Shown piece by piece: positions 10,341 to 58,181 of a DNA stretch of 64,000 bases (positions within the stretch are counted from its first letter, which is position 1; the number at the start of each line of letters is the position of its first letter). The DNA lies in the NCBI GenBank assembly GCA_032718475.1, contig JAUCBJ010001066.1, forward strand, positions 1-64,000, in the 5' to 3' direction. The translations under genes and the position numbers were made by a program. This DNA comes from Nemertoderma westbladi. Its lineage: Eukaryota; Animalia; Xenacoelomorpha. The notes below the pieces were generated by a model that did not search any database, had not been told where the DNA came from, and worked only from the letters and a program-made list of their open reading frames with translations.

Positions 10341-10470
10341 GCGCCCCAGCGACTGCGCCCCAACGACCGCGCCCCAACGACCGCACCCCAACGACCGCAC
10401 CCCAACGACCGCGCCCCAACGACCGCGCCCCAACGACCGCGCCCCAACGACCGCGCCCCAACGACCGCGC
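10341..10470. repeat. 14-bp GC-rich minisatellite, ~9 copies
   Basis: Unit GCGCCCCAACGACC; it explains the repetitive ORFs at 10275-10533. Confidence 0.9.
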
Positions 10471-28911: not shown

Positions 28912-28996
28912 TATGTATTTCTATAGCAGCGATTAGATGTTTATTTATCTGCCCCCTTAGCCTTTTTAATCCCCCCCCCCTCCCCCGCACCCACAG

Positions 28997-34400: not shown

Positions 34401-34721
34401 TTGAATATAGTAGTGGCTTTATTGTACTTTAATAAGTACGGACATTTCATCTTACTGTAGTTACGTATTCGTAATGTAATACGGGCAGCAAGGAAAGAGA
34501 AAAAGAATTATTTCTCGCCGTCGCACTAAATATAATATACAAGTAATTAAGTAATAAACACTAATATATTGCACTGATCTACTAAATAATCACTAAATAA
34601 CATTCTACTAAATAAAATTAAAGAAAACGATTATAATAAAATTACATAATAATACATACATCATATAAAATAATAAAAATAAATATAAAATAATATAGTC
34701 ACACACCCACTCCGTATGTTG

Positions 34722-36407
34722 TTACGTTATGGAGTCCCTAGATATTTGTTGGATTAGGGAGGTGGTCGTGGGAAGAGTATCTTGCCTTCCATAGTTTCCG
34801 GACAGTTTTCGGTCTCTTTCCGGTAAACATAAACGACCAGCTGGGCGATTGAGTGGTTGTGTTACTTTCTCCGCTCCCTTGGCCTGTCTAATCTTCGCCG
34901 GGTTAAGATGGGGAGGCCATTCATCTTCTTTACTTAGGAAGTCGGGTTCACCTAACCAGTCTGGAGTATCTGTAAGTTCTTGAGGAGTTGCTCCTCTGGA
35001 GGCGATGTCGGCTAGATTGATCGTCTCGGGGCAATGTCTCCATTGATCTTCATTGGAGTTGATGTCGTCATGACCTGAGGAGTATGGTGTTCCCTCAGTT
35101 GGGTCGTCAACTTCACTGCTCTCCACTTCCTGTTCACTTAATTGATATACCTGTTCTTTTGGTAATCTTTCCATAAGAGTTCTACGAGAAGGGCCAGTAA
35201 AGTACCAACCTACTCTAGTTCTTCCCGCATAAACTTGTAGAGGTTGCGGTTGAGCAGGCCGTTTCTCCAATGTCTCGAGCGCTTCATGCGCATTTTGACC
35301 GATGAGTATTTGGACTCCAGGATAATCGGTGTTGAATCTAGGTATTTCAAACTGCTGGGTGAAATCATCCTCATCCCAATTATAAAGGTCTGCTTGAGTA
35401 GTAGCGAAGTTCTTTATAGCCACCATTTTCACTGACCTTATGCTATGTTCTCCTAGTTCGTCCTGGGGGGTGGACAACGCACCTACATAATAATCCGCTG
35501 TTACTGTAGATTTCCAAACCTGCATAATCCCTGACATGTTTAGCTTAGTTCGGAACTTGGGTTGTCCAGCGAATATGTCTTCGGCTAGCTCTTTGTCGAT
35601 GAATGTTCCTGTACTACTGGAGTCAAGGAGGGCGTTCACTACATAACTCCTTTTTGGTCCGTGGACCCTTACCTGTACCACAGGAAATTCTCTAATCCCT
35701 ACATTGGAAGTTGGCGCTTTCCAAAATGGTGGTTGATCAGAAGTAGTTAGAGTGAGGTCACTTTCTGTATCTTTTTCATAAGTAAGTGCTCGATACACTG
35801 CGGTATTTGTTAGGTAACAGGATTCGTTTTCGTCGGAGAATTCGTCCGTATAGAATCCTTCCATCTCAGAATATTGGTCAGTGTCGTTCACATCACTGAA
35901 TTGGACATGTAGTTCGGACTCACTTACCTGACTCGGGCTGTTTCGTTCGAATTCCGTGTGCAACAAGATATGATGTTTTGCGCCGCACTTTGCACACCTT
36001 ACGTCGGAGTAACAGGTTCGCCGTTGGTGTCCTCGTCTGAGGCAATTATAACACAACCGCTTATCCCACATGACTTCACGTCTGTCCTTTAGTGATTTCC
36101 TCAGGAATTCATCACACGCACTTAAACGGTGGGGCCCGTCGCACAGCACACATTTGGGCTTGATGTTACTTACTTTAACATGTGCTGTGTGGTGCACGTT
36201 CGTTCTTTCCTCGGGCTTTCTCACCTGAATTCTCTTGGGAGACGTAGGAGGAGTTTTTCTTACCTGTTCTCTCCTGTCATTGGTTCGAGACTTGAATTTA
36301 CTTACCTGGTCTGTAGGCGTTTTATTGACATAATAAGATCTTTCAGTGTCTTTCCCGCTATCCTCTCCTTGAGAAGTCTGGCTTTCGCCGTCGTCTGTAT
36401 AACACAC
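34722..36407 (-). CDS. BEL/Pao gag zinc knuckles plus aspartic protease, fused to a short RNase H C-terminal remnant (RT and integrase deleted)
   Basis: CVLCDGPHRLSAC, CYNCLRRGHQRRTC and CAKCGAKHHILLH form the BEL triple knuckle. ALLDSSSTGTFI is the protease site. WRHCPETINLADIASRG..P..L is the end of the Pao RNase H region. No YxDD RT or integrase motifs. Confidence 0.85.
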   Translation of the reverse strand: MCYTDDGESQTSQGEDSGKDTERSYYVNKTPTDQVSKFKSRTNDRREQVRKTPPTSPKRIQVRKPEERTNVHHTAHVKVSNIKPKCVLCDGPHRLSACDEFLRKSLKDRREVMWDKRLCYNCLRRGHQRRTCYSDVRCAKCGAKHHILLHTEFERNSPSQVSESELHVQFSDVNDTDQYSEMEGFYTDEFSDENESCYLTNTAVYRALTYEKDTESDLTLTTSDQPPFWKAPTSNVGIREFPVVQVRVHGPKRSYVVNALLDSSSTGTFIDKELAEDIFAGQPKFRTKLNMSGIMQVWKSTVTADYYVGALSTPQDELGEHSIRSVKMVAIKNFATTQADLYNWDEDDFTQQFEIPRFNTDYPGVQILIGQNAHEALETLEKRPAQPQPLQVYAGRTRVGWYFTGPSRRTLMERLPKEQVYQLSEQEVESSEVDDPTEGTPYSSGHDDINSNEDQWRHCPETINLADIASRGATPQELTDTPDWLGEPDFLSKEDEWPPHLNPAKIRQAKGAEKVTQPLNRPAGRLCLPERDRKLSGNYGRQDTLPTTTSLIQQISRDSIT

Positions 36408-36442
36408 TGGTGTTATCCTTCTCCTAGAAACGGGTTTCTCAC

Positions 36443-39382: not shown

Positions 39383-39535
39383 GTTTGTTTACACAGTTGA
39401 ATGCCTACTGCTATATTACAGTCTAAGCAAGTCTAGTAATTCAGCATTAACTGCTAACCTAGTAATTAATTACCGATACTGCTACTCAGTGTAGCGTGAT
39501 ATATATATAATATTAGAATACCGGTATGCTTATAG

Positions 39536-40431
39536 TCCACGAAGCTAAGGAAAATCAACTACTTTCGCTAAGAAAGATTTTCCTTAGCTGAGATGGTCTA
39601 TTCATAGTGGGCTATTTTACTTGTGTGAGGCAGATTTGGGGTTTTTTGATAGGCGAAAAAACTAGCCTTTAAAAGTACCCTGAAATTTTGCATGTATATA
39701 CTACTCGGCGAGGCGCATCTTTTGGGCCGGGTCTCATATCCAGGAAAAATCTGGTTTCCATGGCAACGGACTTCAAAAAAAGTCTATGTATTTCAAGTCA
39801 ATATTTATAACTCTATTTGTAGGAAAACTATAATAGATTTAAACTTGGGGTTTTGCAACACAACTATAAGGTCCATAGCAGATCCGATTGAGGCTAAATA
39901 GAAAATCCAGTTACCTTGGCAACCGAGATAAACAGATGTTAAAATTTATAAAATGTTAATTTGAGGCCTAAGGGCAAGGTGTTATGACTTGGGACCAACC
40001 CCTACCCCCACTATATAACTTATTCTGCATCCGAATTACATTGTTCTATTTTTCAGTTACCATGACAACAGCCGAAAACAGATGTTTTTATACAAAAATT
40101 ATTCATTTGGACATAGACTTCGCGATAAAATTTTACAAAACTGGGTATGTGTTATCTGCACCACTAGTTGGAACTTTTAGTGAAACTTAAATCATTCCAG
40201 AAATTTAGTTACCATGGTAACTGTAGTTTATTAAACTCTATATCATTCAAGTCTATATTGATAACTCTATTTCTAGCAAAACTGTAATATATATAAACTT
40301 GGGGTTTTGTAACTCATCTATAATTTCCATATCCATCCAAGCCGTTTGAGGTTAATTAGAAAGTACAGTTACCATAGCAACAAGACTAAACAGATGTTAC
40401 TATTTATAAAATGATAATTTGAAGCACAAGT
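39536..40431 (+). mobile_element. Helitron-like non-autonomous element, copy 1 (5' 896 bp only, tandem duplicate of copy 2)
   Basis: Starts TCCACGAAGCTAAGGAAAATC; the sequence repeats with period 896 at 40432. Confidence 0.7.
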
Positions 40432-42087
40432 TCCACGAAGCTAAGGAAAATCAACTACTTTCGCTAAGAAAGATTTTCCTTAGCTGAGATGGTCTATTCA
40501 TAGTGGGCTATTTTACTTGTGTGAGGCAGATTTGGGGTTTTTTGATAGGCGAAAAAACTAGCCTTTAAAAGTACCCTGAAATTTTGCATGTATATACTAC
40601 TCGGCGAGGCGCATCTTTTGGGCCGGGTCTCATATCCAGGAAAAATCTGGTTTCCATGGCAACGGACTTCAAAAAAAGTCTATGTATTTCAAGTCAATAT
40701 TTATAACTCTATTTGTAGGAAAACTATAATAGATTTAAACTTGGGGTTTTGCAACACAACTATAAGGTCCATAGCAGATCCGATTGAGGCTAAATAGAAA
40801 ATCCAGTTACGTTGGCAACCGGGATAAACAGATGTTAAAATTTATAAAATGATAATTTGAGGCCTAAGGGCAAGGTGTTATGACTTGAGACCAACCCCTA
40901 CCCCCACTATATAACTTATTCTGCATCCGAATTACATTGTTCTATTTTTCAGTTACCATGACAACAGCCGAAAACAGATGTTTTTATACAAAAATTATTC
41001 ATTTGGACATAGACTTCGCGATAAAATTTTACAAAACTGGGTATGTGTTATCTGCACCACTAGTTGGAACTTTTAGTGAAACTTAAATCATTCCAGAAAT
41101 TTAGTTACCATGGTAACTGTAGTTTATTAAACTCTATATCATTCAAGTCTATATTGATAACTCTATTTCTAGCAAAACTGTAATATATATAAACTTGGGG
41201 TTTTGTAACTCATCTATAATTTCCATATCCATCCAAGCCGTTTGAGGTTAATTAGAAAGTACAGTTACCATAGCAACAAGACTAAACAGATGTTACTATT
41301 TATAAAATGATAATTTGAAGCACAAGTTAATAGTATTATGACTTGGGACCAAGACCTACCCCCACTATATGACTTATTCTGCATCCGAATTACATTATTA
41401 TATTTTTCAGTTTCCATGACAACCACTGCAAACAGATGCATTTTGATAGAAAATCGGTAATTTGGACATAAACTACAATATTTTCTGAAACTCGGTATAT
41501 GTGTTATAATCTGAACCACAATCTGGACTGAATCTTTTTTCAAAGGTAAAACCCACAGTTCCAGAGAACTCTAGTTTCCATGGGAATAGACGTAAATTAT
41601 TGGCAATTGCTACTAAACTAGGCTATAAGCAACGAACCAAAGTGTGGCCGTTTGTTTAATTTTCCTTAGCTTCGTGGTTGCATTTCCTTTAGGAAATGCC
41701 TTTCTCGTAATAGTATTATGACTTGGGACCAAGACCTACCCCCACTATATGACTTATTCTGCATCCGAATTACATTATTATATTTTTCAGTTTCCATGAC
41801 AACCACTGCAAACAGATGCATTTTGATAGAAAATCGGTAATTTGGACATAAACTACAATATTTTCTGAAACTCGGTATATGTGTTATAATCTGAACCACA
41901 ATCTGGACTGAATCTTTTTTCAAAGGTAAAACCCACAGTTCCAGAGAACTCTAGTTTCCATGGGAATAGAAGTAAATTATTGGCAATTGCTACTAAACTA
42001 GGCTATAAGCAACGAACCAAAGTGTGGCCGTTTGTTTAATTTTCCTTAGCTTCGTGGTTGCATTTCCTTTAGGAAATGCCTTTCTCG
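40432..42087 (+). mobile_element. Helitron-like element copy 2 (40432-41707) plus a 380-bp tandem duplication of its 3' end
   Basis: 5' TC. The 3' end has the subterminal IR ATTTTCCTTAGCTTCGTGG, the hairpin GCATTTCCT-TT-AGGAAATGC and CTTTCTCG|T. The 3' segment repeats at 41708-42087. Confidence 0.72.
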
Positions 42088-42206
42088 TATATATAAGTAT
42101 TATTAGTAACTAGAATTAATTACAGAATACCGGTATGATTTCAGCACAAATATATAAATATATAATAGGCCTATCGTGGATACCGGTATGCAGTTTACAC
42201 TTATAG

Positions 42207-43479
42207 TCCACGAAGCTAAGGAAAATCAACTACTTTCGCTAAGAAAGATTTTCCTTAGCTGAGATGGTCTATTCATAGTGGGCTATTTTACTTGTGTGAG
42301 GCAGATTTGGGGTTTTTTGATAGGCGAAAAAACTAGCCTTTAAAAGTACCCTGAAATTTTGCATGTATATACTACTCGACGAGGCGCATCTTTTGGGCCG
42401 GGTCTCATATCCAGGAAAAATCTGGTTTCCATGGCAACGGACTTCAAAAAAAGTCTATGTATTTCAAGTCAATATTTATAACTCTATTTGTAGGAAAACT
42501 ATAATAGATATAAACTTGGGGTTTCGCAACACAACTATAAGGTCCATAGCAGATCCGATTGAGGCTAAATAGAAAATCCAGTTACCTTGGCAACCGGGAT
42601 AAACAGATGTTAAAATTTATAAAATGTTAATTTGAAGCCTAAGGGCAAGGTGTTATGACTTGGGACCAACCCCTACCCCCACTATATAACTTATTCTGCA
42701 TCCGAATTACATTGTTCTATTTTTCAGTTACCATGACAACCGCTGAAAACAGATGTTTTTATTCAAAACTTATTCATTTGGACATAGACTTCACGATAAA
42801 ATTTTACAAAACTGGGTATGTGTTATCTGGACCACTAGTTGGAACTTTTAGTGAAACTCAAAACATTCCAGAAATATCTAGTTACCGTGGTAACTGGAGT
42901 TTATTACAGATTATATCATTCAAGTCTATATTCATAACTCTATTTGTAGAAAAACCGCAATAGATATAAACTTGGGGTTTCTCAACTCAACTATAAGGTT
43001 CATATCCAAGCCGTTCGAGGTTAATTAGAAATTCCAGTCACCATAGCAACAAGACTAAACAGATATTAAAATTTATAAAATGATAATTTGAAGCACAAGT
43101 TAATAGTATTATGACTTGGGACCAACACCTACCCCCACTATATGACTTATTCTGCATCCGAATTACATTGTTCTATTTTTCAGTTTCCATGACAACCACT
43201 ACAAACAGATGCATTTTGATAGAAAATCGGTAATTTGGACATAAACTACAATATTTTCTAAAACTCAGTACATGTGTTATCTGAACCACAATCTGTACTG
43301 AATTTTTTTTCAAAGGTTAAAGCAACAGTTCCAGCGAACTCTAGTTTCCATGGGAATAGAAGTTAATTATTGACAATTGCTACTAAACGAGGCTAAGCAA
43401 GCAACGAACCAAAGTGTGGCCGTTTGTTTAATTTTCCTTAGCTTCGTGGTTGCATTTCCTTTAGGAAATGCCTTTCTCG
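42207..43479 (+). mobile_element. Helitron-like element copy 3
   Basis: Same termini. Shares the left flank CTTATAG with copy 1 and the right flank ATATATAAGTAT...GAATACCGGTATGATTTCAGC with copy 2. Confidence 0.72.
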
Positions 43480-43746
43480 TATATATAAGTATAATTATTA
43501 ACTAAAATTAATTACAGAATACCGGTATGATTTCAGCCTAAGTTTATGAAAATAAAGATAATAAGCCTATTGTAAATACCGGTATATCAATTATTTTAAA
43601 TAATTGAATTTCTGAATTTTAAGGGTTACTTGGTTACTTTAACTTACTTTATCGCCGTTATTTAAGCAGTAGTCCAACTGATATTGAGACCTAATTGTTA
43701 TATGGCAGGCCTACTATTTATAAATCGTTTGAGTTGATTTATAATA

Positions 43747-45028
43747 TCCACGAAGCTAAGGAAAATCAACTACTTTCGCTAAGAAAGATTTTCCTTAGCT
43801 GAGATGGTCTATTCATAGTGGGCTATTTTACTTGTGTGGGGCAGATTTGGGGTTTTTTGGTCGGGGAAAAAACTAGCCTTTAAAAGTACCCTGAAATTTT
43901 GCATGTATATACAACTCATCAAGGCGCGTCGTGTGGGACGGGTCTCATCTCCAGGAAAAATCTGGTTTCTATGGCAACGGACTTAGAAAAAAGTCTATGT
44001 ATTTCAAGTCAATATTTGTAACTCTATTTGTAGGAAAACTATAATACATATAAACTTGGGGTTTCTCAACACAACTATAAGGTCCATAGCAGAGCCGATT
44101 GAGGTTAAATAGAAAATCCAGTTACCTTGGCAACCGGGCTAAACAGATGTTAAAATTTTTAAAATGTTAATTTGAAGCCTAAGGTTAAGGTGTGATGACT
44201 TGGGACCAATCCCTACCCCCACTATATAACTTATTCTGCGTCCGAATTTGATTGTTCTATTTTGCAGTTACCTTGACAACCGCTGAAAACAGATGTTTTT
44301 ATACGAAAATTATTCATTTGTACATAGACTTCACGATAAAATTTTACGAAACTAGGTATGTGTTATCTGGACCACTAGTTGGAACTTTTAGTGAAACTCA
44401 AAACATTCCAGAAATATCTAGTTACCATGGTAACTGTAGTTTTTTTAAAGTTATATATCATTCAAGTCTATAATCATAACTCTATTTGGAGAAAAACTGT
44501 AATATATATAAACTTGGGGTTTTGCAACTCATCTATAAGGTCCATATACAAACCGTTCGAGGTTAATTTGAAAATCCAGCTACCATAGCAACAAGACTAT
44601 ACAGATGTTAAAATTTATAAAATGATAATTTGAAGCACAAGTTAATAGTATTATGACTTGGGACCAACACCTACCCCCACTATATGACTTATTCTGCATC
44701 CGAATTACATTGTTCTATTTTTCAGTTTCCCTGACAACCACTGCAAACAAACCGATGCATTTTCATAGAAAATCGGTAATTTGAACATAAACTACAATAT
44801 TTTCTGAAACTCGGTATATATGTTATCTGAACCACAATCTGGACTAAATCTTTTTTCAAAGGTTAAACCAACAGTTCCAGAAAACTGTAGTTTCCATGGG
44901 AATATAAGTTAATTATATTGGAAAATGCTACTAAACTAGGCTAAGTTAAGCAACGAACCAAAGTGTGGCCGTTTGTTTAATTTTCCTTAGCTTCGTGGTT
45001 GCATTTCCTTTAGGAAATGCCTTTCTAG
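43747..45028 (+). mobile_element. Helitron-like element copy 4
   Basis: A|TC start at 43747 and hairpin + CTAG|T end at 45028: canonical Helitron ends at an AT target with no TSD. Confidence 0.78.
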
Positions 45029-45159
45029 TATATATACCCGTTTAATGGGTTTTGTCAATGTTTGAAATAAATGTTATTATTTCTGGGGGAGTCACTACAC
45101 ATAAGCTGTGCGCTCTCAGTGGAGTGCTACTTGTTAGACACTAAAACAAATAATTCTAA

Positions 45160-46630
45160 TCCACGAAGCTAAGGAAAATCAACTACTTTCGCTAAGAAAG
45201 ATTTTCCTTAGCTGAGATGGTCTATTCATAGTGGGCTGTTTTACTTGTATGGAGCAGATTTAGTGTTTTTTGATAGGTGAAAAAACTAGCCTTTAAAAGT
45301 ACCCTGAAATTTTGCATGTATATACAACTCATCAAGGCGCGTCGTGTGGGATGGGTCTCATATCCAGGAAAAATCTGGTTTCCATGGCAACGGACTTAGA
45401 AAAAAGTCTATGTATTTCAAGTCAATATTTGTAACTCTATTTGTAGGAAAACTATAATACATATAAACTTGGGGTTTCTCAACACAACTATAAGGTCCAT
45501 AGCAGAGCCGATTGAGGTTAAATAGAAAATCCAGTTACCTTGGCAACCGGGCTAAACAGATGTTAAAATTTTTAAAATGTTAATTTGAAGCCTAAGGTTA
45601 AGGTGTGATGACTTGGGACCAATCCCTACCCCCACTATATAACTTATTCTGCGTCCGAATTTGATTGTTCTATTTTGCAGTTACCATGACAACCGCTGAA
45701 AACAGATGTTTTTATACAACAATTATTCATTTGGACATAGACTTCACGATAAAATTTTACAAAACTGGGTATGTGTTATCTGGACCACTAGTTGGAACTT
45801 TTAGTGAAACTCAAAACATTCCAGAAATATCTAGTTACCATGGTAACTGGAGCTTATTAAAGTCAATATCATTCAAGTCTATATTTTTAACTCTTGTTTG
45901 TAGGAAAACTGTATTAGATATAAATATTGGGTTTCCCAACTCAACTATAAGGAAGGTCCTTAGAGGAGCCAATTGTGGTTAATTAGAAAATCCAGTTACC
46001 TTGGTAACCAGGCTAAACAGATGTTATAATTTAAAAAATTATAATTAGAAACACAAGTTAAAGGCATTATGACTTGGGACCAACCCCTACCACCATAATA
46101 TCACTTATTCTGCATCCAATCTACGTTGTTCTATTTGCCAGTTACCTTGACAACCACTGCAAACAGACTTTTTAACAAATTAATAATTAATTTTGCACAT
46201 AAACTACTCAATGAAGCTTCCTTGAAGTCGATGTGTCACCTGGAACCACAAACTAGATCTTAATGTAAAACTCAGCATTTCTAGAAAAGTCCAGTTACCT
46301 TGGCAATACCGGGAGTTCTTTTAACTCGGTAAATCAATGAACTGATGAGTCAAAGAGTGTCTAATTTTCCTTAGCTTCGTGGTTGCATTTCCTTTAGGAA
46401 ATGCCTTTCTAGTTTACCTAAGTCTTCCTTGAAGTCGATGTGTCACCTGGAACCACAAACTAGATCTTAATGTAAAACTCAGCATTTCTAGAAAAGTCCA
46501 GTTACCTTGGCAATACCGGGAGTTCTTTTAACTCGGTAAATCAATGAACTGATGAGTCAAAGAGTGTCTAATTTTCCTTAGCTTCGTGGTTGCATTTCCT
46601 TTAGGAAATGCCTTTCTAGTTTACCTAAGT
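45160..46630 (+). mobile_element. Helitron-like element copy 5 (45160-46412, divergent 3' half) plus a 207-bp tandem duplication of its 3' end and flank
   Basis: A|TC...CTAG|T. 46217-46423 is repeated at 46424-46630. Confidence 0.75.
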
Positions 46631-47292
46631 TACTTAATACTACAAATTACGTACAATTCTGGTTGAGATTACAATCTCTAAATAAACACAAAAATTTAAT
46701 TACAAATACACAAATACGAATTTTTAGGGTAATTTTACAAGAAGTCTACTAACCAGCCTAACAAAGGGTTAGAATATCTGGTTATTACAACGGACAGTTA
46801 CTACGGTATTTGAAAATAATAAGTAGTAGTAAATATACTGCACTGTCCAGATAGGAAAATACCACCGCCTGACGACCTATAACCGTATCGCTATAGGTAC
46901 TACGTTATGTATCACGGAGTGTTCCTACCTAGAGATTAATTACCGCGGTCTACCAGAACCAACGTGCCTATTAACCACTTTACAACACAAATATACTGCC
47001 TACACACTAATCACCTTCGGAAAGTACAGTACACTAAACCCTAAATTAGGTACAAGTACTTGTACGACAAATAATTAGTAGTTAAAAATACTTGAACAGC
47101 TAAAAGAACCACGGTATCTGCCGGAGTGACCAAAGCATAAAATCTCCAATCTTTACCTACACCGAGCAGCCCTGATGTAGTACCGGGGTTAGTTTAACTA
47201 TAACGGTATGTATAACAAACACAATTACTGTAGGAATAAACTTGGGGATATGAATGTTGCGAATAATCGCATAAACTCTGAATAATAAATAT

Positions 47293-47860
47293 TACGCTAC
47301 GCGTACAAACTACTCAAACAAAATGCAGACCAAATACTGACAGACTACTATCAAGCCTAAACAAACTACGGTATATGCAGACTCCGAAATGATTAGTTAG
47401 TATGCGTTCTAACCCAGTAGTACGACTTATTCTTTCACAGGGGGTTTACCTCACAGCACTTGAAGCCCCTACTTTCCTAACTTAGCACTTTATCGGACAG
47501 ATGCTCTACACACACCGAAATTTCCTCAAACCCAACAACAGCCAGACAACTATCCAGCCTACAAATTATCTAAATAAAATTATACGCTACCCGTACAGAC
47601 TACACAAACAAAGTACAGACCAAACGCTGGCGGACTCCTATCAGGCCTAAATAAACCACAGGACATGCAGACTCCGAAATGGTTAAGTAGTATGCATTCT
47701 AACCCAGTAGTACGACTTATTCTTTAGATGGGGGTTTACCTTACAGCTATGGCTGCCCCTACTTCCTAACCGTTCTTTATCGGACATACACTCTACATGC
47801 ACTGCAATCCGTTCAGACCTAATCAACAGTTAGCCAACAGTCAAGCCTACAAATTATCTG
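47293..47860. repeat. Two diverged ~290-bp tandem units in the retrotransposon leader
   Basis: TACGCTAC...GCAGACTCCGAAATG...TTCTAACCCAGTAGTACGACTTATTCTTT...AGCCTACAAATTATCT at 47293 and 47583. Confidence 0.8.
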
Positions 47861-48160
47861 TACAATCTGAGCAGGCTTACACGCCTTCTGCTCAATACTG
47901 GCCTACAAATAAATAAAACTTGACAGAAACAAGTAAAATCTCAATAAAAAACCAGGGCGGCCGTCCCTGATTAATTATTAAGGCCTACCGGTATATAATT
48001 ATCAAAATCGAATAATACTGATGTACCTGTACCGTAAGTACCGGTTCGGATGATCAGGCAGTCAGGCCTACTGGTTACAGCAGTACAGGTTACCGTTCGA
48101 CCGGTACCGGTACTTTAGACTAGATTGCTTACACCGCAATCCAGAAGCTATATCTGTTAT

Positions 48161-49325
48161 TGTATGCGCTTTTAAGACCTTTGACAGTTTAACCTGCCAA
48201 ATTAGGATGTCTTTTAGATTATATATATTCTTTAGCTTATGACGAGTATTTGATACACTACATTAGCCGAAGCCAGTCTATGCGCAATCATTCACCCGCT
48301 GGATATACCCGGGAGACTGAATTCGGAACTTAATGATTGATGGTGTAAGCCTACCGTATTATTCGACTGATCATAATATATAATCTCTGACAAATATTAT
48401 TCACTTTCGGGAAATATTAACAGTTCCTTTAGGACGTGGCGCTCTAAATATGTAAACAGAGTTATGACTTAAACTAGACACAACGAAAAGGCTATAGATT
48501 CACGTATATGGCGCATTCTTTAGGAGATGCTTTGTTATCAGTTACAATCATACACAATGCTGCACAATACTGCACACTAATCTGCCGACCTTCACTAAAT
48601 TTGGTCACGTATAAAGAGAGCAACATACAATTTATGTCGGGCATATGAAATAGCATTAGATTCACTTCAAACCACTTAACATAGGTCGCAATCGTTTATC
48701 TGTAACCGGTCTCTCTAACCTTTAGTATATCAAGAAGGTGGGGTGTCTGACTATTGATCAGTATTCCGATATAATATTTCATCAACCAATATAATGAATA
48801 ACCGACAGTAAAAGCAGTAATATTAGTAATTTATGGATAGATATGGTATGTTAACTCGATTTGCATTGGTATGGTTAGATAACAGATATACGTTCTATAA
48901 TTAAGCCTACTAATGTAAAGCTAAAGAATGCTGATATACGGAGGTGCCAAAAGCCGGTGTTCTTAGGCTCTGGGCAAAAACATAACACTGAACTACTGAG
49001 TTTCTGCATCCACCTCCAACACAGAGACAAAAAACGCTCTGATTGGTCAACCGAACAACGAGAGAACAAAGAAACAAAGAAATGTCGACGTGGCAATATC
49101 AGCTGTTAGCCGTCGTCATGGTAGCGACACTGTTTTCAAGAGTATCTAGCTTATCGCGTCACGAGATTACGGATTATGTCCTCTAAAGTACAAATACAGA
49201 AGAAATGGCTTTTATGTCCTCTAAAACACCAGTACAGCAAGGACACGGCCTTTTTATGCCTGGTAAACCAACCACAGAGTACTTTACGGGGAAAATAACC
49301 GGCTAATTACGCAAAAGCTTTTACA
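48161..49325 (-). repeat. 5' LTR (1165 bp)
   Basis: TGTATGCGCTTTTAAGACC...GCAAAAGCTTTTACA, with an extra GGGGTGTCTGACT at ~48740-48752. Confidence 0.93.
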
Positions 49326-50983
49326 GTGAATGTAGAGTAAAATAAACAAACAAAACTTTAAATATGGCTAGAATGTTAAATTTTGATAGGTGTTCTTTTT
49401 TCAATCTCTGTATAGTAAAATTTATAATTTTAAATTTGTTGTTTTCAATATTTAGTTTTGGAAATATTTCTAAACAAGTTTAAAAAATTTAGAAATCACT
49501 ATATTTATTTATAAATTTCACAAACATATTTAGAAAAAAAACCCTGACCGATATTACCATACCAACACCAACGTCATGAGTTTGAGGTCATCGTCAATTA
49601 ATTCATGCAGGCTTTCAATTCCCATAAACCAATAAAACGTGTTAATTGTAGGTGTGCTCATCTAATAGCTGTATGATGTTCTGTTGGCGATTCTGATAAA
49701 AAAAATCGATAAGTCCAAAATCTGAAAATGAATAATCGACTTAAAAAGTTGCCTGTTGCATTTATTATAATGTATATAAAGTATACTATTATTTAGTATA
49801 TTTATATTTAGTATACTAAATATAGTGCATTGTGTCGGAACATTAACCAGAGTAAATAAGTGCCCAAATGTTTTATTACAGTCCATCCTGCGTATCGCAT
49901 TACAGGCTAACCTGTCTGGGACAACAAATAACCTTTATGTAGGACTGGGCTCAGTTTTTGAAAAATGTTCTCAAAAGTATGCTATCCCCAGTTTGAGCTC
50001 AATTTTGTGCTATAAATATAGTAAATGCTCACTATATAAGCTTTTAGAACCTGCAGCACTCACAATGGCGGAGGAATCCGACCGCGATTTTATTTTGCAG
50101 TGCTATTCGCAGTCGTTGCCTTTCAAAACGCGTCATCATAGGATAGAACAATATTTTAACTGGATAAATAAAGTTAGGGTGACGTGATTGCTGGATCGTA
50201 TCCTATTTTGATTTATCGTGTACGAACTATAACTCGTAATTATTGAGTCTTTAATGAACCGAATACAATCAGTAATTTTACCTGAACTTACGAGCATAGC
50301 TCTTTTAGATGATCCTGTTTTTATTCATTTATTATGAATGGCTTAGTAGTAGCAGTCTGTTTTAATTATCCTCAAATGTCATATCAATTATTTTACTAAC
50401 AGTGCTATTTTATATACTTCTGCTATTTGATTTTATTTTGTACTTCCCTTTTAAATTAACACAAATAAATGCCGGCTTGTCCGGATGATGCGCCTCCATG
50501 CGCTCTGATTATTATTATTATAATGAAACATTTTACCAATATTCTTGTCTTGTGATTTACAGCACTTAAGCAAAGTGTTGTGTAAGTAACGCACTATATT
50601 TTAAGCGGCGTCCTCGTCATGTTTCGTCCAATATTTAAAAAAAACAGATCAGTTTTTGACTGCTTTGTAGTGCGTCGGTTCAAAAAACGGGGTTCAAACC
50701 CCGTTTTTTTTCTAATAAATTTGAATCACCAACTGCTGAGTTAGTTTGGATTTTTGATTGAATAAACCATTAATAATATTGAAACGGAGATACAGGTAGT
50801 ATGATATCCCCAATCAGATTTGGAGACAGAGTGGGCTATTGATGCAAATCCCATCTCGGTGAATATGAAAATATAAAATAAGGAAATAGGCGGTATGTAA
50901 AGTACTAACTATATATTCCACCAGTACAGTGTAAACCGTATCCTGCAGGTACTACAGTTAGTATTCACCGTTTTTATTTGCAG

Positions 50984-51150
50984 TCCGCCAGTGCCTTTAC
51001 GAATTCAACGATTGCCTGGAAGGCGGCGCTAAGAAGGCTGAATGTGCGGCTTCCCATCTCAAACGAATATTTCCTGGAGTCAACGCTGTTGGTATAGAAC
51101 TCAGTGTACCAATGCCGGCCCACACACTGGCTGACTCAATGGTAGAACAG
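50984..51150 (+). CDS. ATG7: ATG7 coding exon 4 (not in the ORF track)
   Basis: Acceptor TTTTTATTTGCAG|TC completes GTC (Val). Encodes VRQCLYEFNDCLEGGAKKAECAASHLKRIFPGVNAVGIELSVPMPAHTLADSMVEQ, continuing SNP|VRQ of ATG7. Donor CAG|GTAGGG, phase 0. Confidence 0.92.
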
Positions 51151-52912
51151 GTAGGGACTCAGTGTACCAATGCCGACCCACACACTGGCTGACTCAATGG
51201 TAGAACAGGTAGGGACTCAGTGTACCAATGCCGGCCCACACACTGGCTGACTCAATGGTAGAACAGGTAGGGAGGGACTCAGTGTACCAATGCCGGCCCA
51301 CACACTGGCTGACTCAATGGTAGAACAGGTGGGGACTCAGTGTACCAATCCCGGCCCACACACTGGCTGACTCAATGGTAGAACAGGTAGGGACTCAGTG
51401 TACCAATGCCGGCCCACACACTGGCTGACTCAATGGTAGAACAGGTAGGGACTCAGTGTACCAATGCCGGCCCACACACTGGCTGACTTAATGGTAGAAC
51501 AGGTAGGGACTCAGTGTACCAATGCCGGCCCACACACTGGCTGACTCAATTGTAGAACAGGTAGGGACTCAGTGTACCAATGCCGGCCCACACACTGGCT
51601 GACGCAATGGTAGAACAGGTAGGGACTCAGTGTACCAATGCCGACCCACACACTGGCTGACTCAATTGTAGAACAGGTGGGGACTCAGTGTACCAATCCC
51701 GGCCCACACACTGGCTGACGCAATGGTAGAACAGGTAGGGACTCAGTGTACCAGTGCCGGCCCACACACTGGCTGACGCAATGGTAGAACAGGTAGGGAC
51801 TCAGTGTACCAATGCCGGCCCACACACTGGCTGACTCAATGGTAGAACAGGTAGGGACTCAGTGTACCAATGCCGACCCACACACTGGCTGACTCAATTG
51901 TAGAACAGGTGGGGACTCAGTGTACCAATCCCGGCCCACACACTGGCTGACGCAATGGTAGAACAGGTAGGGACTCAGTGTACCAATGCCGGCCCACACA
52001 CTGGCTGACGCAATGGTAGAACAGGTAGGGACTCAGTGTACCAATGCCGGCCCACACACTGGCTGACTCAATGGTAGAACAGGTAGGGACTCAGTGTACC
52101 AATGCCGGCCCACACACTGGCTGACTCAATTGTAGAACAGGTGGGGACTCAGTGTACCAATCCCGGCCCACACACTGGCTGACTCAATGGTAGAACAGGT
52201 AGGGACTCAGTGTACCAATCCCGGCCCACACACTGGCTGACTCAATGGTAGAACAGGTTGGGGGTCAGTGTACCAATGCCGGCCCACACACTGGCTGACT
52301 CAATGGTAGGAGAGGTTGGGAATCAGTGTACCAATGCCGGCCCACACACTGGCTGACTCAATGGTAGAACAGGTAGGGACTCAGTGTACCAATGCCGGCC
52401 CACACACTGGCTGACTCAATGGTAGAACAGGTAGGGACTCAGTGTACCAATGCCGGCCCACACACTGGCTGACTCAATGGTAGAACAGGTAGGGACTCAG
52501 TGTACCAATGCCGACCCACACACTGGCTGACTCAATGGTAGAACAGGTAGGGACTCAGTGTACCAATGCCGGCCCACACACTGGCTGACTCAATGGTAGA
52601 ACAGGTAGGGACTCAGTGTACCAATGCCGGCCCACACACTGGCTGACTCAATGGTAGAACAGGTAGGGACTCAGTGTACCAATGCCGGCCCACACACTGG
52701 CTGACTCAATGGTAGAACAGGTAGGGACTCAGTGTACCAATGCCGGCCCACACACTGGCTGACTCAATGGTAGAACAGGTAGGTAGGGACTCAGTGTACC
52801 AATGCCGGCCCACACACTGGCTGACTCAATGGTAGAACAGGTAGGGACTCAGTGTACCAATGCCGGCCCACACACTGGCTGACTCAATGGTAGAACAGGT
52901 AGGAACTCAGTG
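51099..52912 (+). repeat. 58-bp tandem array, 31 copies, made from the ATG7 exon 4/intron 4 junction
   Basis: Unit ACTCAGTGTACCAATGCCGGCCCACACACTGGCTGACTCAATGGTAGAACAG|GTAGGG, which is 52 coding nt plus intron +1 to +6. Confidence 0.97.
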
Positions 52913-52946
52913 AGTTGTGTGACTCAGTAAATTGTTTGTTTTATAG

Positions 52947-53168
52947 GTGAAGCGTGATGTGCGCACTCTAGAGGAGTTAATAAGAACTCATGATTGCATA
53001 TTCTTATTAATGGATTCCAGAGAGAGCCGTTGGTTACCGACTATGTTGGCGACAGCCAATAGGAAACTAGTGATTAACGCGGCCTTGGGATTCGATACTT
53101 ATATGGTGATGCGTCATGGTGTCCCCGCTGATAATCAACTAGAAGGGGACGATAACATTATTAACCAG
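52947..53168 (+). CDS. ATG7: ATG7 coding exon 5
   Basis: Acceptor TTTTATAG|GTG. Encodes [31 protein letters not shown]...[17 protein letters not shown]. Donor CAG|GTAAAG, phase 0. Confidence 0.93.
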
Positions 53169-53466
53169 GTAAAGTACAACCAAAACTCAACTGTTTTTGA
53201 CACCATTAATTATTTAGATGGTGATGGACACATCAAATTGTAATTAACTAATTTAAAATTAAATGTTAGAAAATTCAGCGCATTTCACTTTACCGATTAA
53301 TGCAATGTATTGACGATAGTAAAACAAATTGATCATATTATATTAGCTAATTGATTATCCTCGCAAGAGTTAATTAAAATTAGGTCAACATATCGTTTTA
53401 GAACCTATGATAGGAAAATCGATGTGTTGGTCTAGCAGCTAGGGATAGCATAGTGTGTGTGATACC

Positions 53467-54381
53467 TTAATTAGTTAAAGAACAATATTGGTGATTAATG
53501 CCAGTTTGTGTGACTGTGACCAGTCTGTAACCAGGTTTATCGTCACCTATCTGCAGACTTACTGCCGACGTAACAATCTGTTCTACGCCGTTCCACGAAC
53601 TAACCGCGTTCCTATGGTAATGACCACAGAATACGGCTGTCACTCCTGCCTGTTTGAACTTATCGAGCATCGGTTTACGGAGCTCCATCGGTAGCGAGAA
53701 ATACTTCGACTTATCTGAGTTCCTTGGGGAGTCGATATCGCCAAGGTAATAGGGGATGTGTTGGAATACTAAGGCCTGTTTACAGCCCTTGATTCCCGCC
53801 AAAACCCTGTCCACCCATTGGTCCATACCTAGCCTCTCAGCAGACGCTTTACTGTCGTCCATATAGAGCTGGGAGTTTAACACGACCATCGCAACTCCGC
53901 CCACCCAGAACGAGTAGTAATCGTCGCCGAATGTCCGCCGATACTGAGCGATAGTCTGCGGGGTTGGGGATTCCCCGACGTCGTGGTTCCCACAGACGCA
54001 CAACAAGGGAACCTCGGGTCGTAGTTTACGGAACGCCGATATGAAGTCGCGTTCCATCGCCCCGCGTTGCTTCATCCACGGGTAGCCGTGGACCTGGTCC
54101 CCGCATACGATGAGGAACCGCGGCGACGGGTCCATTCGGTTTACCGTGTCGACGAGACGAGCGACCCTCGCCAACTCCTCGTCCCACACGAGATCGTTGC
54201 GGAGTTCGCTCTGCATTCGATCCACGTTGAAGTCGTCTATGAGTCCGAGTTGCGTGTCCGCCGCTTGTATAAAACTGAAGCCACCTCTCCACTCGCCCTC
54301 ACTTTCTTTACTCAATCCTATATGATCTAAGGAACGGTTGATCGCTTTGTGTTGGAGTTCCTCCATTACTGTGTCTGACAT
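53467..54381 (-). CDS. CPPED1: Calcineurin-like Ser/Thr phosphoesterase CPPED1, 304 aa, single coding exon, nested antisense in ATG7 intron 5
   Basis: Metallophosphoesterase motifs FIQAADTQLG, VCGDQVH, CGNHDVG, FQHIP and FCGHYHRN, plus CPPED1-typical FGDDYYSFWVGGV...VLNSQ. Confidence 0.88.
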   Translation of the reverse strand: MSDTVMEELQHKAINRSLDHIGLSKESEGEWRGGFSFIQAADTQLGLIDDFNVDRMQSELRNDLVWDEELARVARLVDTVNRMDPSPRFLIVCGDQVHGYPWMKQRGAMERDFISAFRKLRPEVPLLCVCGNHDVGESPTPQTIAQYRRTFGDDYYSFWVGGVAMVVLNSQLYMDDSKASAERLGMDQWVDRVLAGIKGCKQALVFQHIPYYLGDIDSPRNSDKSKYFSLPMELRKPMLDKFKQAGVTAVFCGHYHRNAVSSWNGVEQIVTSAVSLQIGDDKPGYRLVTVTQTGINHQYCSLTN

Positions 54382-54641
54382 CTGGTTGTTTTCCTATTTA
54401 CTGGTTTATACTCCATTAGGCTACTCAGATAGTGGCCCTGCGAACATTGAGCTGGTAGTTGTTTTGAACGACACTAGCCGAACAAGCCTGAAATCAGATA
54501 AATAGTTTTTTTTGTTTTACTTTACGCTTTTAATGACAATTATATTACCGTGTAAATAAATATTAACTCATAAATGGGTAAATCCCAAATGGCGGGAAAT
54601 TCAAACCGATATAGTATTTCAGTATTTCAGTCTGTGTACTG

Positions 54642-54770
54642 TACACGTTCGTGGGGCCTTCGCGCAGCACGAGGCCCAGTTATGAGATACAAATTAAAAT
54701 TGAGCGACTGTATCACAAAATCAGGTTTTGAGAAATTTACCCACACCACCAATCAATCAAAGAAAGGGTG
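54642..54770 (+). repeat. Short dispersed repeat with a GC-rich hairpin (second copy 60607-60725)
   Basis: ACACGTTCGTGGGGCCTTCGCGCAGCACGAGGC.CAGTTAT.AGA.ACAAATTAA occurs at both positions. Confidence 0.7.
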
Positions 54771-54888
54771 ACAGTACGTGTTCACCCCTTTTAATCCCCC
54801 CCCCCCCACCCTTCCCAACCACCAATACATAACCGCGACATCTACCACCCACGGAAGGGTAGCACGAACTTATTTCCAATCGCACGTT

Positions 54889-55180
54889 CAATATGCAAAG
54901 CCAGGTGGTTTATAGGAATATAATAAACGCAGTACTCGTTTTCATTATAAGCCTCGTTGCGTTCGTCCTGTTTTGTATTTAAATATATTTCTTAAACGCA
55001 GGCTAGGACGATCTTTATAATAATAATAACTAGGGATGCGATCAATATGTGAAGCCAGGTGGTTTATATAATAATTTAGTCAACGCAGTACTCGTCTTCA
55101 TTATATGCCTCGTTGCGCTCGTCGCTTGTCCTGTTTTGTCATAAAATATTTTTCCTAAACGCAGACTGACGATCTTTATA
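54889..55180. repeat. Two diverged ~150-bp tandem units
   Basis: AATATG..AAGCCAGGTGGTTTATA...AACGCAGTACTCGT...GCCTCGTTGCG...TAAACGCAG...GACGATCTTTATA occurs twice. Confidence 0.7.
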
Positions 55181-56419
55181 CAGTTATAACTATGCGAAGT
55201 TTCGAAACTGTGCGAGTAACTGTTGATACATCTATGTGGAGATGTGTGATATGTGGAGATGTGTGATACAACGCCAACGCATCTTATGCCGATGTAGTAA
55301 TATGGGTATTGAAATAATATTAAATCAATGTACACTCTTAAAGCTGCAGCGAAAAAATGTAGCTAATTTCCTAGGTTACATATAAAATAATAATATTATT
55401 TTTAAGAACATTAATTTTACTACTTTGCAAAAATTCAATTAAAAAATAACCAGACATATACATTGTGGAATAAACTATTTCAGAAGCCTACAACAGCCAT
55501 GCCATGGATTGTATTTATGTTATTATATCTGTCATTTACCTGAGATAGCAATAGTAGTAGTAGTCGAACGGTTATGCGGCCCGTCCAGCCTATAATAAAC
55601 ACAATTCAGTGATAGTGATAATAATACAACACTTATAGTAGAGTCAATAGGAATTGGAATACAGGAAGGATGTTGGGATGTTGGATTTAAAGAATGCTGT
55701 CTGGGCTGGAATAGCAATACTGGTTGCCTATTACAATTCCTCTCTGGTTAGTCTACAGCCACAACTCCCAGCTAGCTAGCTCCACACCAGCAGAGACTTG
55801 ACCAATAATGGGAAGGATTAAATTTGTACTCAATAATTGTGCCGTTTAATTACGTTTAGATCAATTAAAGACACATTTATTAAAGCAAATCACTTGAACT
55901 AATTAAAAACTATAATAGAATGGCGTATGTGGATTACATCTGTATAATTTTTAAGTATAATTATTTAAATCTTATACTGTAAAACAATTAATTTCCTTTA
56001 AAAGGCAGGTTGAAAATGGTGTTTTCACCGTAATCAACTTAATTAACTAATTAACTGCTATTATCTTAGCTTCTCGAAGGCCACACGGAAATTCTACTTG
56101 GAAAATTTCTAAACTTTTGCCAAACAACATGTGTACCAAGTTTGGATAGATTTCATCAAAGATTGGCCGAGTTATTAACGTTTAAAATTGAACGCGACAG
56201 AACGACAGGTTGATTAATGGTACCACTACGCTAAGGCTCACTCACTTCGTGGCTCGCCCCACATGGGACCTATCGATGCCAGTGGACGTCATGGACTACC
56301 CCCCATGCCCCCCCCCCCCCCCCCCCCGCATATCATCGCATAATCCATTTAGAATTCTCAAATCAGGCATGGAATCCATGGCAGCTGCACGATATTGATT
56401 TGCCTGAGGACGTTCAGGG

Positions 56420-56770
56420 CAAATTTGTTAGGAATATTTCAGGTCTGACGGGATAGCTTATGATGATAAATTAGCTCAGATCGGTCTTACAACTCTATCA
56501 GATCGGAGAAAATGGGGTGATGTGATTCAAACCTTCAAAATTATCAACAGTATAGATAATGTTGAAAATAATTGGTTCAAGTTGTAAGACACCGAATCAA
56601 ACAAGACAATTGGTTTCGATGTCGAATAATGGGGTACCAATACCCAAGTTGAGTGTAGTTCCTCCTAAGTGGGAGTTTCGAAAGAACTTTTTTAGCTGTC
56701 GTGTTGTAAATGACTGGAACAACCTCCCTCAAGAGACACAATTTCAAAAAAGATACGACAAGTTTATTAA
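56420..56770 (+). mobile_element. 3' fragment of a CR1-group LINE
   Basis: Translates to YDDKLAQIGLTTLSDRRKWGDVIQTFKII and RKNFFSCRVVNDWNNLP, typical CR1 ORF2 C-terminal motifs, with stops and frameshifts. Confidence 0.75.
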
Positions 56771-57043
56771 TTTTATAATTAAAGAAGATTTCTAAAGACG
56801 TTTAAGCATTAAAAACGTTCAATAAACAAAATAGTAATAAAATAAAATAAAAAAATGCAAAATAGTGCAATAAACCTATATATTATTATATTATTATCAT
56901 ATTTTGACTAGGTGAGGGGGACATAATCCTCTAGCAGATGTTTACCCACCTAGGACCAAATCTGCTAGCAGCGAGGGGATTTATGTTAGCCTGATTGATA
57001 TAAACGGAGGGCGGACTTTTCTAACCAAAGTTGTTTTCTTCAG

Positions 57044-57226
57044 GGCCTTGCTGCGGATAATAAACGACTGGGCTGTTATTTCTGTAACGATGTCGTCGCA
57101 CCTGGCGACTCTACCAGGGATCGAACTCTCGACCAACAATGCACCGTCAGCCGACCTGGTCTATCTATGCTCACTGCCGCGCTCGCTGTAGAACTCTTTG
57201 TCTCCGTATTGCAGCACCCTCTACAG
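57044..57226 (+). CDS. ATG7: ATG7 coding exon 6 with the catalytic cysteine (not in the ORF track)
   Basis: Acceptor TTTTCTTCAG|GGC. Encodes [31 protein letters not shown]...[16 protein letters not shown]. Ends at a non-canonical donor CAG|GCAAGT, phase 0. Confidence 0.92.
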
Positions 57227-57494
57227 GCAAGTTTACGAACTCTGTATTAGAAGCTCGATGAAAATTGATAAACTACATACAGAAAGGCTATTTAACTAAA
57301 TTTCCGCAATAATAATAATTAATTTTAAACCAAATTTAAATTCTAAAATAAATTCTAACCCTAACCTTATATAGCTATTATTTATATACACACACACTGC
57401 TAAGGCTAACTACAGTACTTTATCTAAATCCTGCTTAATGGCTACAGTAGTTCACTAACTATTTCCAGTTTGGTTCCCAGATTTGACTCCCCTT

Positions 57495-57901
57495 TGTTTC
57501 CTTAGGGTTTAGCACCCGCTATATCTTCAGCCAATGACACCCATCTAATGGTTGAACCCTGTTGTTTCCTTAGGGTTTGGCACCCGCTATATCTTCAGCC
57601 AATGACACCCATCTAATGGTTGAACCCTGTTGTTTCCTTAGGGTTTGGCACCCGCTATATCTTCAGCCAATGACACCCATCTAATGGTTGAACCCTGTTG
57701 TTTCCTTAGGGTTTGGCACCCGCTTTATCTTCAGCCAATGACACCCATCTAATGGTTGAACCCTGTTGTTTCCTTAGGGTTTAGCACCCGCTATATCTTC
57801 AGCCAATGACACCCATCTAATGGTTGAACCCTGTTGTTTCCTTAGGGTTTGGCACCCGCTATATCTTCAGCCAATGACACCCATCTAATGGTTGAACCCT
57901 G
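57495..57901 (+). repeat. 68-bp tandem array, 6 copies, made from the ATG7 intron 6/exon 7 junction
   Basis: Unit TGTTTCCTTAG|GGTTTGGCACCCGCTATATCTTCAGCCAATGACACCCATCTAATGGTTGAACCCTGT. AG acceptors end at 57505, 57573, 57641, 57709, 57777 and 57845. Confidence 0.96.
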
Positions 57902-58181
57902 CACCCCATTGGGCGTCATTCCTCATTCAATTCGCGGATTCCTCTCCCGATTCCAAACAATTCTTCCTCTGAGTTTCGCCTTCTCAGCCTGCGTGGGCTG
58001 CAGCGCTCCCGTGATTGACAGCTACAACACGGACGGGTTTGACTTCCTCATTAAGGTCTTCAATGATTCTGACTTTCTGGAACAACTCACCGGATTGGCT
58101 GCTATGAAGGCGGACACCCTGAGTGATGACCTTATTGCTCTCAGTGACTCTGAGGATGATGACCCACCTAATATGTTATAG
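57846..58181 (+). CDS. ATG7: ATG7 coding exon 7 (last)
   Basis: GLAPAISS...PLGVIPHSIRGFLSRF...AFSACVGCS...FLIKVFNDSDFLEQLTGL matches the ATG7 C-terminus; stop TAG at 58179-58181. The spliced CDS totals 2055 nt (684 aa). Confidence 0.9.
   Translation, partial: GLAPAISSANDTHLMVEPCTPLGVIPHSIRGFLSRFQTILPLSFAFSACVGCSAPVIDSYNTDGFDFLIKVFNDSDFLEQLTGLAAMKADTLSDDLIALSDSEDDDPPNML

What the first reader, a model, noticed from the sequence alone, without database searches (positions are those of the whole stretch)
51099..52946. Intron 4 is almost entirely 30 extra copies of the end of exon 4; the collapsed intron would be only 48 nt
Seen: many copies are identical to the 52 coding nt plus CAG|GTAGGG, so the true and decoy donors have the same local context. 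Any later donor includes an in-frame TGA at 51190-51192. Only ~34 nt of unique sequence precede the acceptor. A 10-nt match GAACTCAGTG (51097-51106 and 52903-52912) brackets the array and may be the seeding microhomology. Each unit also has internal AGs, so units could act as pseudo-exons or recursive AG|GT sites (AACAG|GTAGG). Inference: donor choice must be positional (first-come, co-transcriptional, or by exon definition).
Basis: partly seen in the sequence, partly recalled or inferred. Interest (0 to 1): 0.7.

Follow-up and report, generated by a model that had tools for sequence, protein, structure and literature searches.

The report
Splice-junction repeat arrays in ATG7
In an animal's autophagy gene ATG7, the end of exon 4 with its splice signal is repeated 31 times in a row and two other introns carry the same kind of repeat, yet the one assembled transcript examined joins at the correct copy at both arrays checked, so these are likely tolerated repeats of a kind already known from human and lancelet genes.

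Summary
Intron 4 (51151-52946) of an intact 684-aa animal ATG7 holds 30 extra copies of a 58-nt unit: 52 exon nt plus the donor. All 30 later donors hit a stop at codon 452, and the intron without the copies is 48 nt. One spliced contig from one public run carries a single unit at intron 4 (first donor) and at intron 6 (last acceptor). Two DNA runs from separate studies break at the array with raised depth, which argues against an assembly expansion. First donor plus last acceptor fits pairing across the exon better than first-come choice, though decay of faulty transcripts may hide leakage. Recursive splicing has no support and is not excluded. This is a known kind: the human F7 intron-7 VNTR and lancelet 'mirages'. 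The scan has noted it before on other DNA (16 findings in at least 12 genomes, unchecked notes). The leftover puzzle is why all three high-copy arrays in this gene sit on splice junctions.

The parts
23271..58181 (+). Host gene ATG7, 7 exons (23271-23609, 24211-24812, 28997-29202, 50984-51150, 52947-53168, 57044-57226, 57846-58181), 684 aa, no internal stop
   Evidence: Spliced translation; Pfam ATG7_N on exons 1-2 and ThiF on exons 3-5 (exons 4 and 5 at or below the curated cut-off as fragments); tblastn with 4 homologues places exons 1-4, 6, 7 (rows in the array and just before exon 5 were filtered by coordinate)
50984..51150 (+). Exon 4; its last 52 nt (51099-51150) are the coding first copy of the unit
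51099..52912 (+). 58-nt array, 31 units plus an 8-nt partial unit; unit = 52 exon nt + 6 donor nt
51151..51156 (+). True donor of intron 4 (first of 31)
   Evidence: Only donor that keeps the frame open; transcript contig carries one unit before exon 5
51190..51192 (+). In-frame TGA (codon 452) reached by any later donor
52899..52946 (+). Last donor copy plus unique tail with T-rich acceptor: the 48-nt collapsed intron
   Evidence: joint skipping 48 nt with GT..AG ends in run X4
52947..53168 (+). Exon 5
24790..28911 (+). Second junction array, intron 2: 29(28)-nt unit x143 = last 23 nt of exon 2 + donor; collapsed intron 91 nt; coding copy differs from the commonest unit at 5 of 29 positions
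   Evidence: donor choice not seen in RNA
57490..57901 (+). Third junction array, intron 6 (GC-AG): 68-nt unit x6 = 12 intron nt with acceptor + first 56 nt of exon 7; only the last acceptor (57845|57846) gives the full protein; collapsed intron 279 nt
   Evidence: transcript contig continues into exon-7-unique letters after one unit

Best explanation
The array is a minisatellite whose 58-nt unit spans the exon 4/intron 4 border of ATG7, one of three such arrays in this gene, and it likely persists as a tolerated, functionless repeat because splicing likely pairs the nearest sites across each exon and so keeps the coding copy. Shown: unit structure, decoy donors, the stop, a transcript contig with one unit at intron 4 (first donor) and one at intron 6 (last acceptor), and multi-copy DNA in two other runs. 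Inferred steps: (1) a local tandem duplication caught the exon end plus donor of a short intron (about 48 nt); (2) it survived because the first copy stays coding and all others fall in the intron; (3) slippage or unequal exchange expanded it in blocks (units 10-13 recur as 14-17) and keeps copies alike; (4) the spliceosome defines the exon from its upstream acceptor to the first usable donor, and the last exon from the nearest acceptor, as in the oriented-scanning result for human F7; (5) rare later-donor products would carry a stop at codon 452, before the likely catalytic cysteine (about residue 545; role recalled), and would likely be removed by nonsense-mediated decay.
For: run X4 record 17 (1666 nt, depth 1356.6): joint 52896->52945 with GT..AG ends and 50 letters on the short side, which ends exactly at the unit start (52847), where exon 4 and the array differ. 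It also has the intron 5 joint, and a loose end behind 57561 equal to exon-7-unique 57902-57931. Bin depths 759.4 and 542.6 equal this contig's contribution alone (759.35, 542.64). DNA runs X1 and X3 (two studies) have contigs that stop at the array and first-bin depths of 326 against 10.6 and 107 against 22. Of 11 variant types in the exon-derived part, 10 would change an amino acid and none is in the coding copy, as expected for neutral copies. Precedent: F7, 6-16, CBS, LAMIN B2, PDGF (PMC1557585); lancelet mirages on both 5' and 3' borders with normal mRNA (PMC3087553; PMC3902484).
Against: The RNA evidence is one contig from one run, listed by the tool as 'DNA?' and taken as RNA because it skips introns while two DNA runs do not. 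Contigs drop rare variants. The array genotype of that run's individual is unknown. The contig's letters left of the unit were not displayed, so the link to exon 4 is deduced. Decay can mimic strict donor choice. Intron 2 donor use was not seen. In human 6-16 and CBS the next one or two pseudo-sites are also used. Two unchecked scan notes report the opposite choice elsewhere (last donor e1-9353532; first acceptor e1-7569008). Pure survival does not explain why 3 of 3 high-copy arrays in the gene lie on junctions.
Confidence: 0.82

Rival explanations
1. Donor choice is leaky: later donors are used often, and nonsense-mediated decay removes the products, so copy number would tune ATG7 dose.
For: 30 of 30 later donors give a stop at codon 452 well upstream of later junctions; 22 decoys are identical to the true donor 9-mer; human 6-16 and CBS use extra pseudo-sites; depth ratios hint at different copy numbers between samples (rough).
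Against: No array-junction contig in the spliced run at depth about 1357 (contigs cannot show absence). At intron 6, wrong acceptors put the stop in the last exon, which would likely escape junction-dependent decay, yet the last acceptor still dominates. F7 experiments show strict use of the first donor.
Confidence: 0.08
2. The intron is removed stepwise. Each AACAG|GTAGG acts as a recursive site, or the 48-nt terminal intron goes first and the array is then removed to the re-formed junction. The mRNA would be the same as with one-step splicing.
For: Every unit has an AG|GT that regenerates the exact donor, and a branch-like CTGAC lies 16 nt upstream (sequence; motif recalled). Mature mRNA cannot tell the routes apart.
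Against: The AG at the AG|GT site has 5 of 15 pyrimidines upstream, against 9-12 at real acceptors. The intron is only 1.8 kb, and recursive splicing is mostly known from long introns (recalled). The acceptor array of intron 6 has no in-register AG|GT, so this route cannot serve there.
Confidence: 0.06
3. The array is an assembly expansion or a private allele, and most chromosomes carry the 48-nt intron.
For: No read or contig spans the array; the transcript's individual may lack it.
Against: DNA contigs of X1 and X3, from two studies and differing from the window at 12 of 1610 and 3 of 540 letters, stop at the array edge with 5- to 30-fold bin depth. Units carry interspersed, block-repeated variants.
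Confidence: 0.03

Closest known systems
Human F7 intron-7 37-bp VNTR and like cases (6-16, CBS intron 13, LAMIN B2, PDGF intron 4); PMC1557585: abstract, introduction and discussion read
   Same: First unit spans the exon/intron border; identical donor copies follow in the intron; the most upstream donor is used.
   Different: Here the unit is mostly exon (52 of 58 nt, against 4 of 37 in F7), there are 31 copies (5-9 in F7), the copies make up nearly the whole intron, and two more introns of the gene carry arrays, one on the acceptor side. Function of the decoys was tested for F7, not here.
Lancelet 'mirages' (Adh3, globins BflGb6/BflGb9, troponin C, PGBD5); PMC3087553 passages, PMC3902484 passage; the original Adh3 paper was not held and is known here only through those citations
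   Same: Minisatellite duplications of 5' and 3' exon/intron borders with kept GT/AG signals; normal mRNA; homogenisation within the cluster; unit sizes 10-160 bp, with a range of sizes in Adh3.
   Different: The host is not a lancelet (lancelet ATG7 is 40-41% identical over exon 2). Copy numbers (31, 143) exceed the 3-6 given for BflGb6. Allelic and somatic length variation is not shown here.
Intron gain by tandem duplication of an AG|GT proto-splice site (Rogers model, as cited in PMC3087553 passage)
   Same: A duplicated coding end with AG|GT fills the intron.
   Different: The acceptor used lies in a unique T-rich tail that is not part of the repeat, so the array expanded an existing intron and did not create it (inferred; ancestral intron position not tested).

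Membership tests
Junction-spanning minisatellite (mirage / F7-type VNTR) | Head-to-tail units of minisatellite size | tested here: met
   58 nt x31, 29 nt x143, 68 nt x6
Junction-spanning minisatellite (mirage / F7-type VNTR) | An end unit spans a real exon/intron border of an intact gene | tested here: met
   ATG7 exon map and open frame; junctions of introns 4 and 6 seen in a spliced contig
Junction-spanning minisatellite (mirage / F7-type VNTR) | Extra copies keep the splice signal | tested here: met
   30 of 30 extra units keep GT in intron 4; 5 of 5 keep the acceptor in intron 6
Junction-spanning minisatellite (mirage / F7-type VNTR) | mRNA is spliced at the authentic site | tested here: met
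   One contig, one run, introns 4 and 6; intron 2 not seen
Junction-spanning minisatellite (mirage / F7-type VNTR) | Copy number varies between alleles or cells | tested here: inconclusive
   Bin depth over flank about 30-fold in X1 and 5-fold in X3, but summed contig depth is not copy number
Junction-spanning minisatellite (mirage / F7-type VNTR) | Concerted evolution within the cluster | tested here: met
   Shared variants recur in blocks (units 10-13 and 14-17); in intron 2 the 142 copies drifted together away from the coding copy
F7-type oriented scanning | Downstream pseudo-sites work when the first donor is mutated | not testable with these tools
   Needs minigene mutagenesis
Recursive splice site | AG|GT preceded by a pyrimidine tract | tested here: not met
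   AG|GT present; 5 of 15 pyrimidines against 9-12 at real acceptors
Recursive splice site | Splicing intermediates or lariats at the internal site | not testable with these tools
   Only assembled contigs were available
Intron gained by tandem duplication (Rogers model) | Both intron ends supplied by the duplicated sequence | tested here: not met
   Acceptor is in the unique tail 52913-52946

The most novel reading that the evidence does not exclude
In this animal, splice junctions themselves seed or feed minisatellite growth, through a transcription- or splicing-coupled break or slippage at the junction. All 3 high-copy arrays (period over 10, 5 or more copies) in the 35-kb ATG7 span sit on a junction. 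For the two arrays that did not prompt the finding, uniform seeding gives about 4 in 10,000 (about 1 in 1,000 when matched for GC). A mutation process aimed at exon borders would be a general route of intron growth (the arrays are 18% of this gene), and the gene would be a natural three-site test of exon definition against first-come choice.
Probability: 0.15. Interest if true: 0.65.

Novelty: new member of a known kind. Interest (0 to 1): 0.27.

Why it matters
As biology it is a further, extreme case of a described repeat type, with no sign of a regulatory role. Its use is as a test bed. One essential gene carries two donor arrays and one acceptor array with near-identical decoys, and the transcript seen takes the first donor and the last acceptor. 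That pattern is predicted by pairing across the exon, not by first-come choice or by pairing across the shortest intron. It also shows how a 48-nt intron can grow about 37-fold from coding sequence without changing the protein. If junction-biased seeding held genome-wide it would point to an undescribed mutation bias.

Tried and rejected
No whole genome is held, so intron-length distribution and genome-wide frequency were not measured; the scan has no other notes on this genome. The run search listed no holder on record as RNA; X4 was recognised as spliced only after laying. X6 (another organism label) covered only the repeat-rich middle of intron 5 and no ATG7 exon, so it is no evidence on sister species. 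Of 9 listed runs 4 were laid; X2, X5, X7-X9 were not. The RNA check of the intron-2 donor, and a direct view of exon 4 in the contig, were not obtained. A homologue search with exon 4 alone found nothing (25 candidates, 0 passed). No close relative appeared for exon 2 (at most 42% identity among 120 listed of 369) or the nested phosphatase (at most 48% among 120 listed of 508), so the unexpanded ancestral intron and the microhomology seed could not be tested. Hairpin-driven origin or masking of decoys is not supported for the 58-nt unit (DNA z +1.72 monomer, +0.78 dimer; RNA around true and decoy donors z +1.39 and +2.03). The 29-nt dimer did fold better than shuffles (z -2.71, 2 of 200; 1 of 7 DNA folds tried); the 68-nt unit gave about -1. 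Donor strength as the selector was rejected. Arrays outside the gene (21 nt x45 at 12713, 14 nt x9 at 10341, 5 nt x21 at 20472) and two-copy duplications inside intron 3 (380 nt, 207 nt) show no evident exon link on reading, which limits any claim that all repeats here are junctional. Paper searches (listings and abstract starts only unless stated) found the F7 and lancelet precedents. They found no paper on a genome-wide junction bias in invertebrates (0 papers with 4 of 5 terms) and none on an ATG7 minisatellite (3 unrelated listings); the library lacks most subscription journals. PMC2812944 (outline and one section) concerns repeats at exon borders in human segmental duplications and was not needed further. 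No supplements were opened; those of PMC3087553 (mirage alignments) may bear on the comparison.

Full report
Observation. The array is real and lies where stated: 51099-52912, period 58, 31.1 copies. It has 31 units, two with a 4-nt insertion, and each ends in an in-register GT donor. Of 31 donors, 23 read CAG|GTAGGG, the true one included. Of the 30 extra copies, 10 match the first over all 58 nt and 13 over the 52 exon nt. All 30 later donors stop at codon 452 (TGA 51190-51192). Without the copies the intron is 48 nt, and the 10-nt match is at the two stated places only.

Host gene. Seven exons from 23271 to 58181 splice to an open 684-aa ATG7, supported by Pfam ATG7_N and ThiF and by tblastn with four homologues. 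The organism is an animal-like eukaryote with no close relative in the protein collection: exon 2 is at most 42% identical to the 120 listed of 369 hits, lancelets 40-41%. I did not identify it further.

Three of the six introns have this build. Intron 2 holds 143 units of 28-29 nt made of the exon-2 end plus donor (collapsed 91 nt). The script tested the first 12 of 139 matched donors, and 11 of 11 later ones stop at codon 325-332. Intron 6, a GC-AG intron, holds six 68-nt units made of acceptor plus exon-7 start; 5 of 5 earlier acceptors stop at codon 598-610. The three arrays are 18% of the gene's span.

Transcript evidence. The run search gave 9 rows, none on record as RNA; four were laid on 52825-57580, a stretch with about one unit of each array. 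Run X4, listed as 'DNA?', behaves as RNA. Its record 17 (1666 nt, depth 1356.6) skips the 48-nt intron with GT..AG ends, skips intron 5, and joins exon 6 to the acceptor unit; DNA runs X1 and X3 show none of these joints. At intron 4 the contig has 50 letters on the short side, so it leaves the stretch at 52847, the unit start, where exon 4 and the array differ. A later donor would have extended it leftwards. At intron 6 its loose end equals exon-7-unique 57902-57931, so only one unit lies between exon 6 and the unique exon: the last acceptor. The depths of both end bins are explained by this contig alone (759.35 against 759.4; 542.64 against 542.6). Limits: one contig, one run; contigs drop rare forms; the letters left of the unit were not displayed; that individual's array genotype is unknown; intron 2 was not seen.

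Is it an artefact? Contigs of X1 and X3, from two studies, stop at the array edge, and first-bin depth is 326 against 10.6 and 107 against 22. One of them could be the window's source, but not both. Depth is not copy number. Variants recur in blocks (units 10-13 and 14-17), and 10 of 11 variant types in the exon-derived part would change an amino acid while none is in the coding copy. This is the pattern of a neutral, actively turning-over minisatellite.

How it likely works. A tandem duplication that catches one splice site leaves one coding copy and puts the others in the intron, provided the first donor or last acceptor is used; such arrays can then grow (inferred). Strength does not select the site. 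22 decoys equal the true donor and one matches U1 better, and the unused first acceptor of intron 6 has the better pyrimidine tract. First-come choice predicts the first acceptor, and shortest-intron pairing predicts the last donor and first acceptor; both conflict with the contig. Pairing across the exon predicts first donor and last acceptor, as seen (inferred). Nonsense-mediated decay could hide later-donor use in intron 4. It would likely not hide wrong acceptors in intron 6, whose stops fall in the last exon (established pathway knowledge, not tested in this species). Recursive use of the internal AG|GT gives the same mRNA and cannot be excluded. But that AG has 5 of 15 pyrimidines upstream, against 9-12 at the six real acceptors. 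Folding gave no support for structure-based masking or for a hairpin origin of the 58-nt unit. The 10-nt match may be the seed, but 8 of its letters are also the partial last unit, the other two arrays lack a comparable match, and no unexpanded allele or sister species was available.

Comparison with what is known. Human F7 has a 37-bp VNTR whose first unit spans the exon 7/intron 7 border. Only the most upstream donor is used, and mutagenesis shows oriented scanning; 6-16, CBS, LAMIN B2 and PDGF are listed as like cases, the first two with some use of the next sites (PMC1557585: abstract, introduction, discussion). Lancelet 'mirages' duplicate both 5' and 3' borders in Adh3, globins, troponin C and PGBD5 without disturbing the mRNA (PMC3087553 and PMC3902484, passages). 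The finding meets the testable defining features of that kind; allelic length variation is inconclusive. The scan's own notes list 16 findings with all my search words in at least 12 other genomes (8 shown), and further acceptor-side cases. These are unchecked and were not used as support; two report the opposite site choice.

What stays unexplained. All three arrays with period over 10 and at least 5 copies in the gene lie on junctions. On the collapsed 28.7-kb gene, 1.3%, 2.5% and 2.9% of non-coding-disrupting windows of these lengths span a junction (2.7-4.9% when GC-matched). For the two arrays not used to pick the finding this gives about 4e-4, or 1.3e-3 GC-matched. The null is crude, post hoc and from one gene. 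Two-copy duplications in intron 3 and several arrays outside the gene show no evident junction link. My searches found no paper on such a genome-wide bias or on an ATG7 minisatellite, in a library that lacks most subscription journals.

Verdict. Observation confirmed; interpretation partly supported; new member of a known kind; interest 0.27. Most novel open reading: junction-biased seeding of minisatellites, probability 0.15, interest 0.65 if true.

Noticed in passing
window 51112-51126 (exon 4): The protein reads PMPAH where 116 of the 116 homologues with this motif (of 120 fetched) read PMPGH. The changed codon lies inside the repeat unit, and no copy carries Gly. It may predate the array or have been written into the exon from the array; untested.
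   Followed up: partly
window 53470-54381, minus strand: Intronless CPPED1-like metallophosphoesterase gene (303 aa) nested antisense in ATG7 intron 5; covered by one 1149-nt contig at depth 1158 in run X4.
   Followed up: partly
window 57227-57845: Intron 6 is a GC-AG intron. Its first, unused acceptor has the better pyrimidine tract (14 of 15 against 12 of 15) and a branch-like CACTAAC upstream.
   Followed up: partly
window 29203-50983: Intron 3 is 21.8 kb and holds retrotransposon-like ORFs on the minus strand (36446-39388 with DUF1759; Bel/Pao-type by recall) and a stretch of longer imperfect repeats at about 40800-46630.
   Followed up: no
window 6057-8400 (+) and 16161-17060 (-): Long uninterrupted ORFs for an hnRNP U-like protein (HeH, SPRY, AAA_33; name recalled from the domain set) and RNase HII; with CPPED1, three apparently intronless housekeeping genes in 64 kb.
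   Followed up: no
window 52904-52916 and whole array: The array ends in a 6-bp inverted repeat with a one-base gap that contains a perfect GTGAGT hexamer at 52910. The intron holds 26 copies of TGACTCA, an AP-1-like motif by recall, derived from coding sequence.
   Followed up: no
window 12713-13670, 10341-10470, 20377-20576, 9149-9226: Further minisatellites outside ATG7 (21 nt x45, 14 nt x9, 5 nt x21, 25 nt x3) with no evident link to an exon.
   Followed up: no
window 18126-20132 (+) and 62249-62581 (-): LINE-like reverse transcriptase ORFs (Pfam RVT_1 on 18717-20132 and 62249-62581).
   Followed up: no
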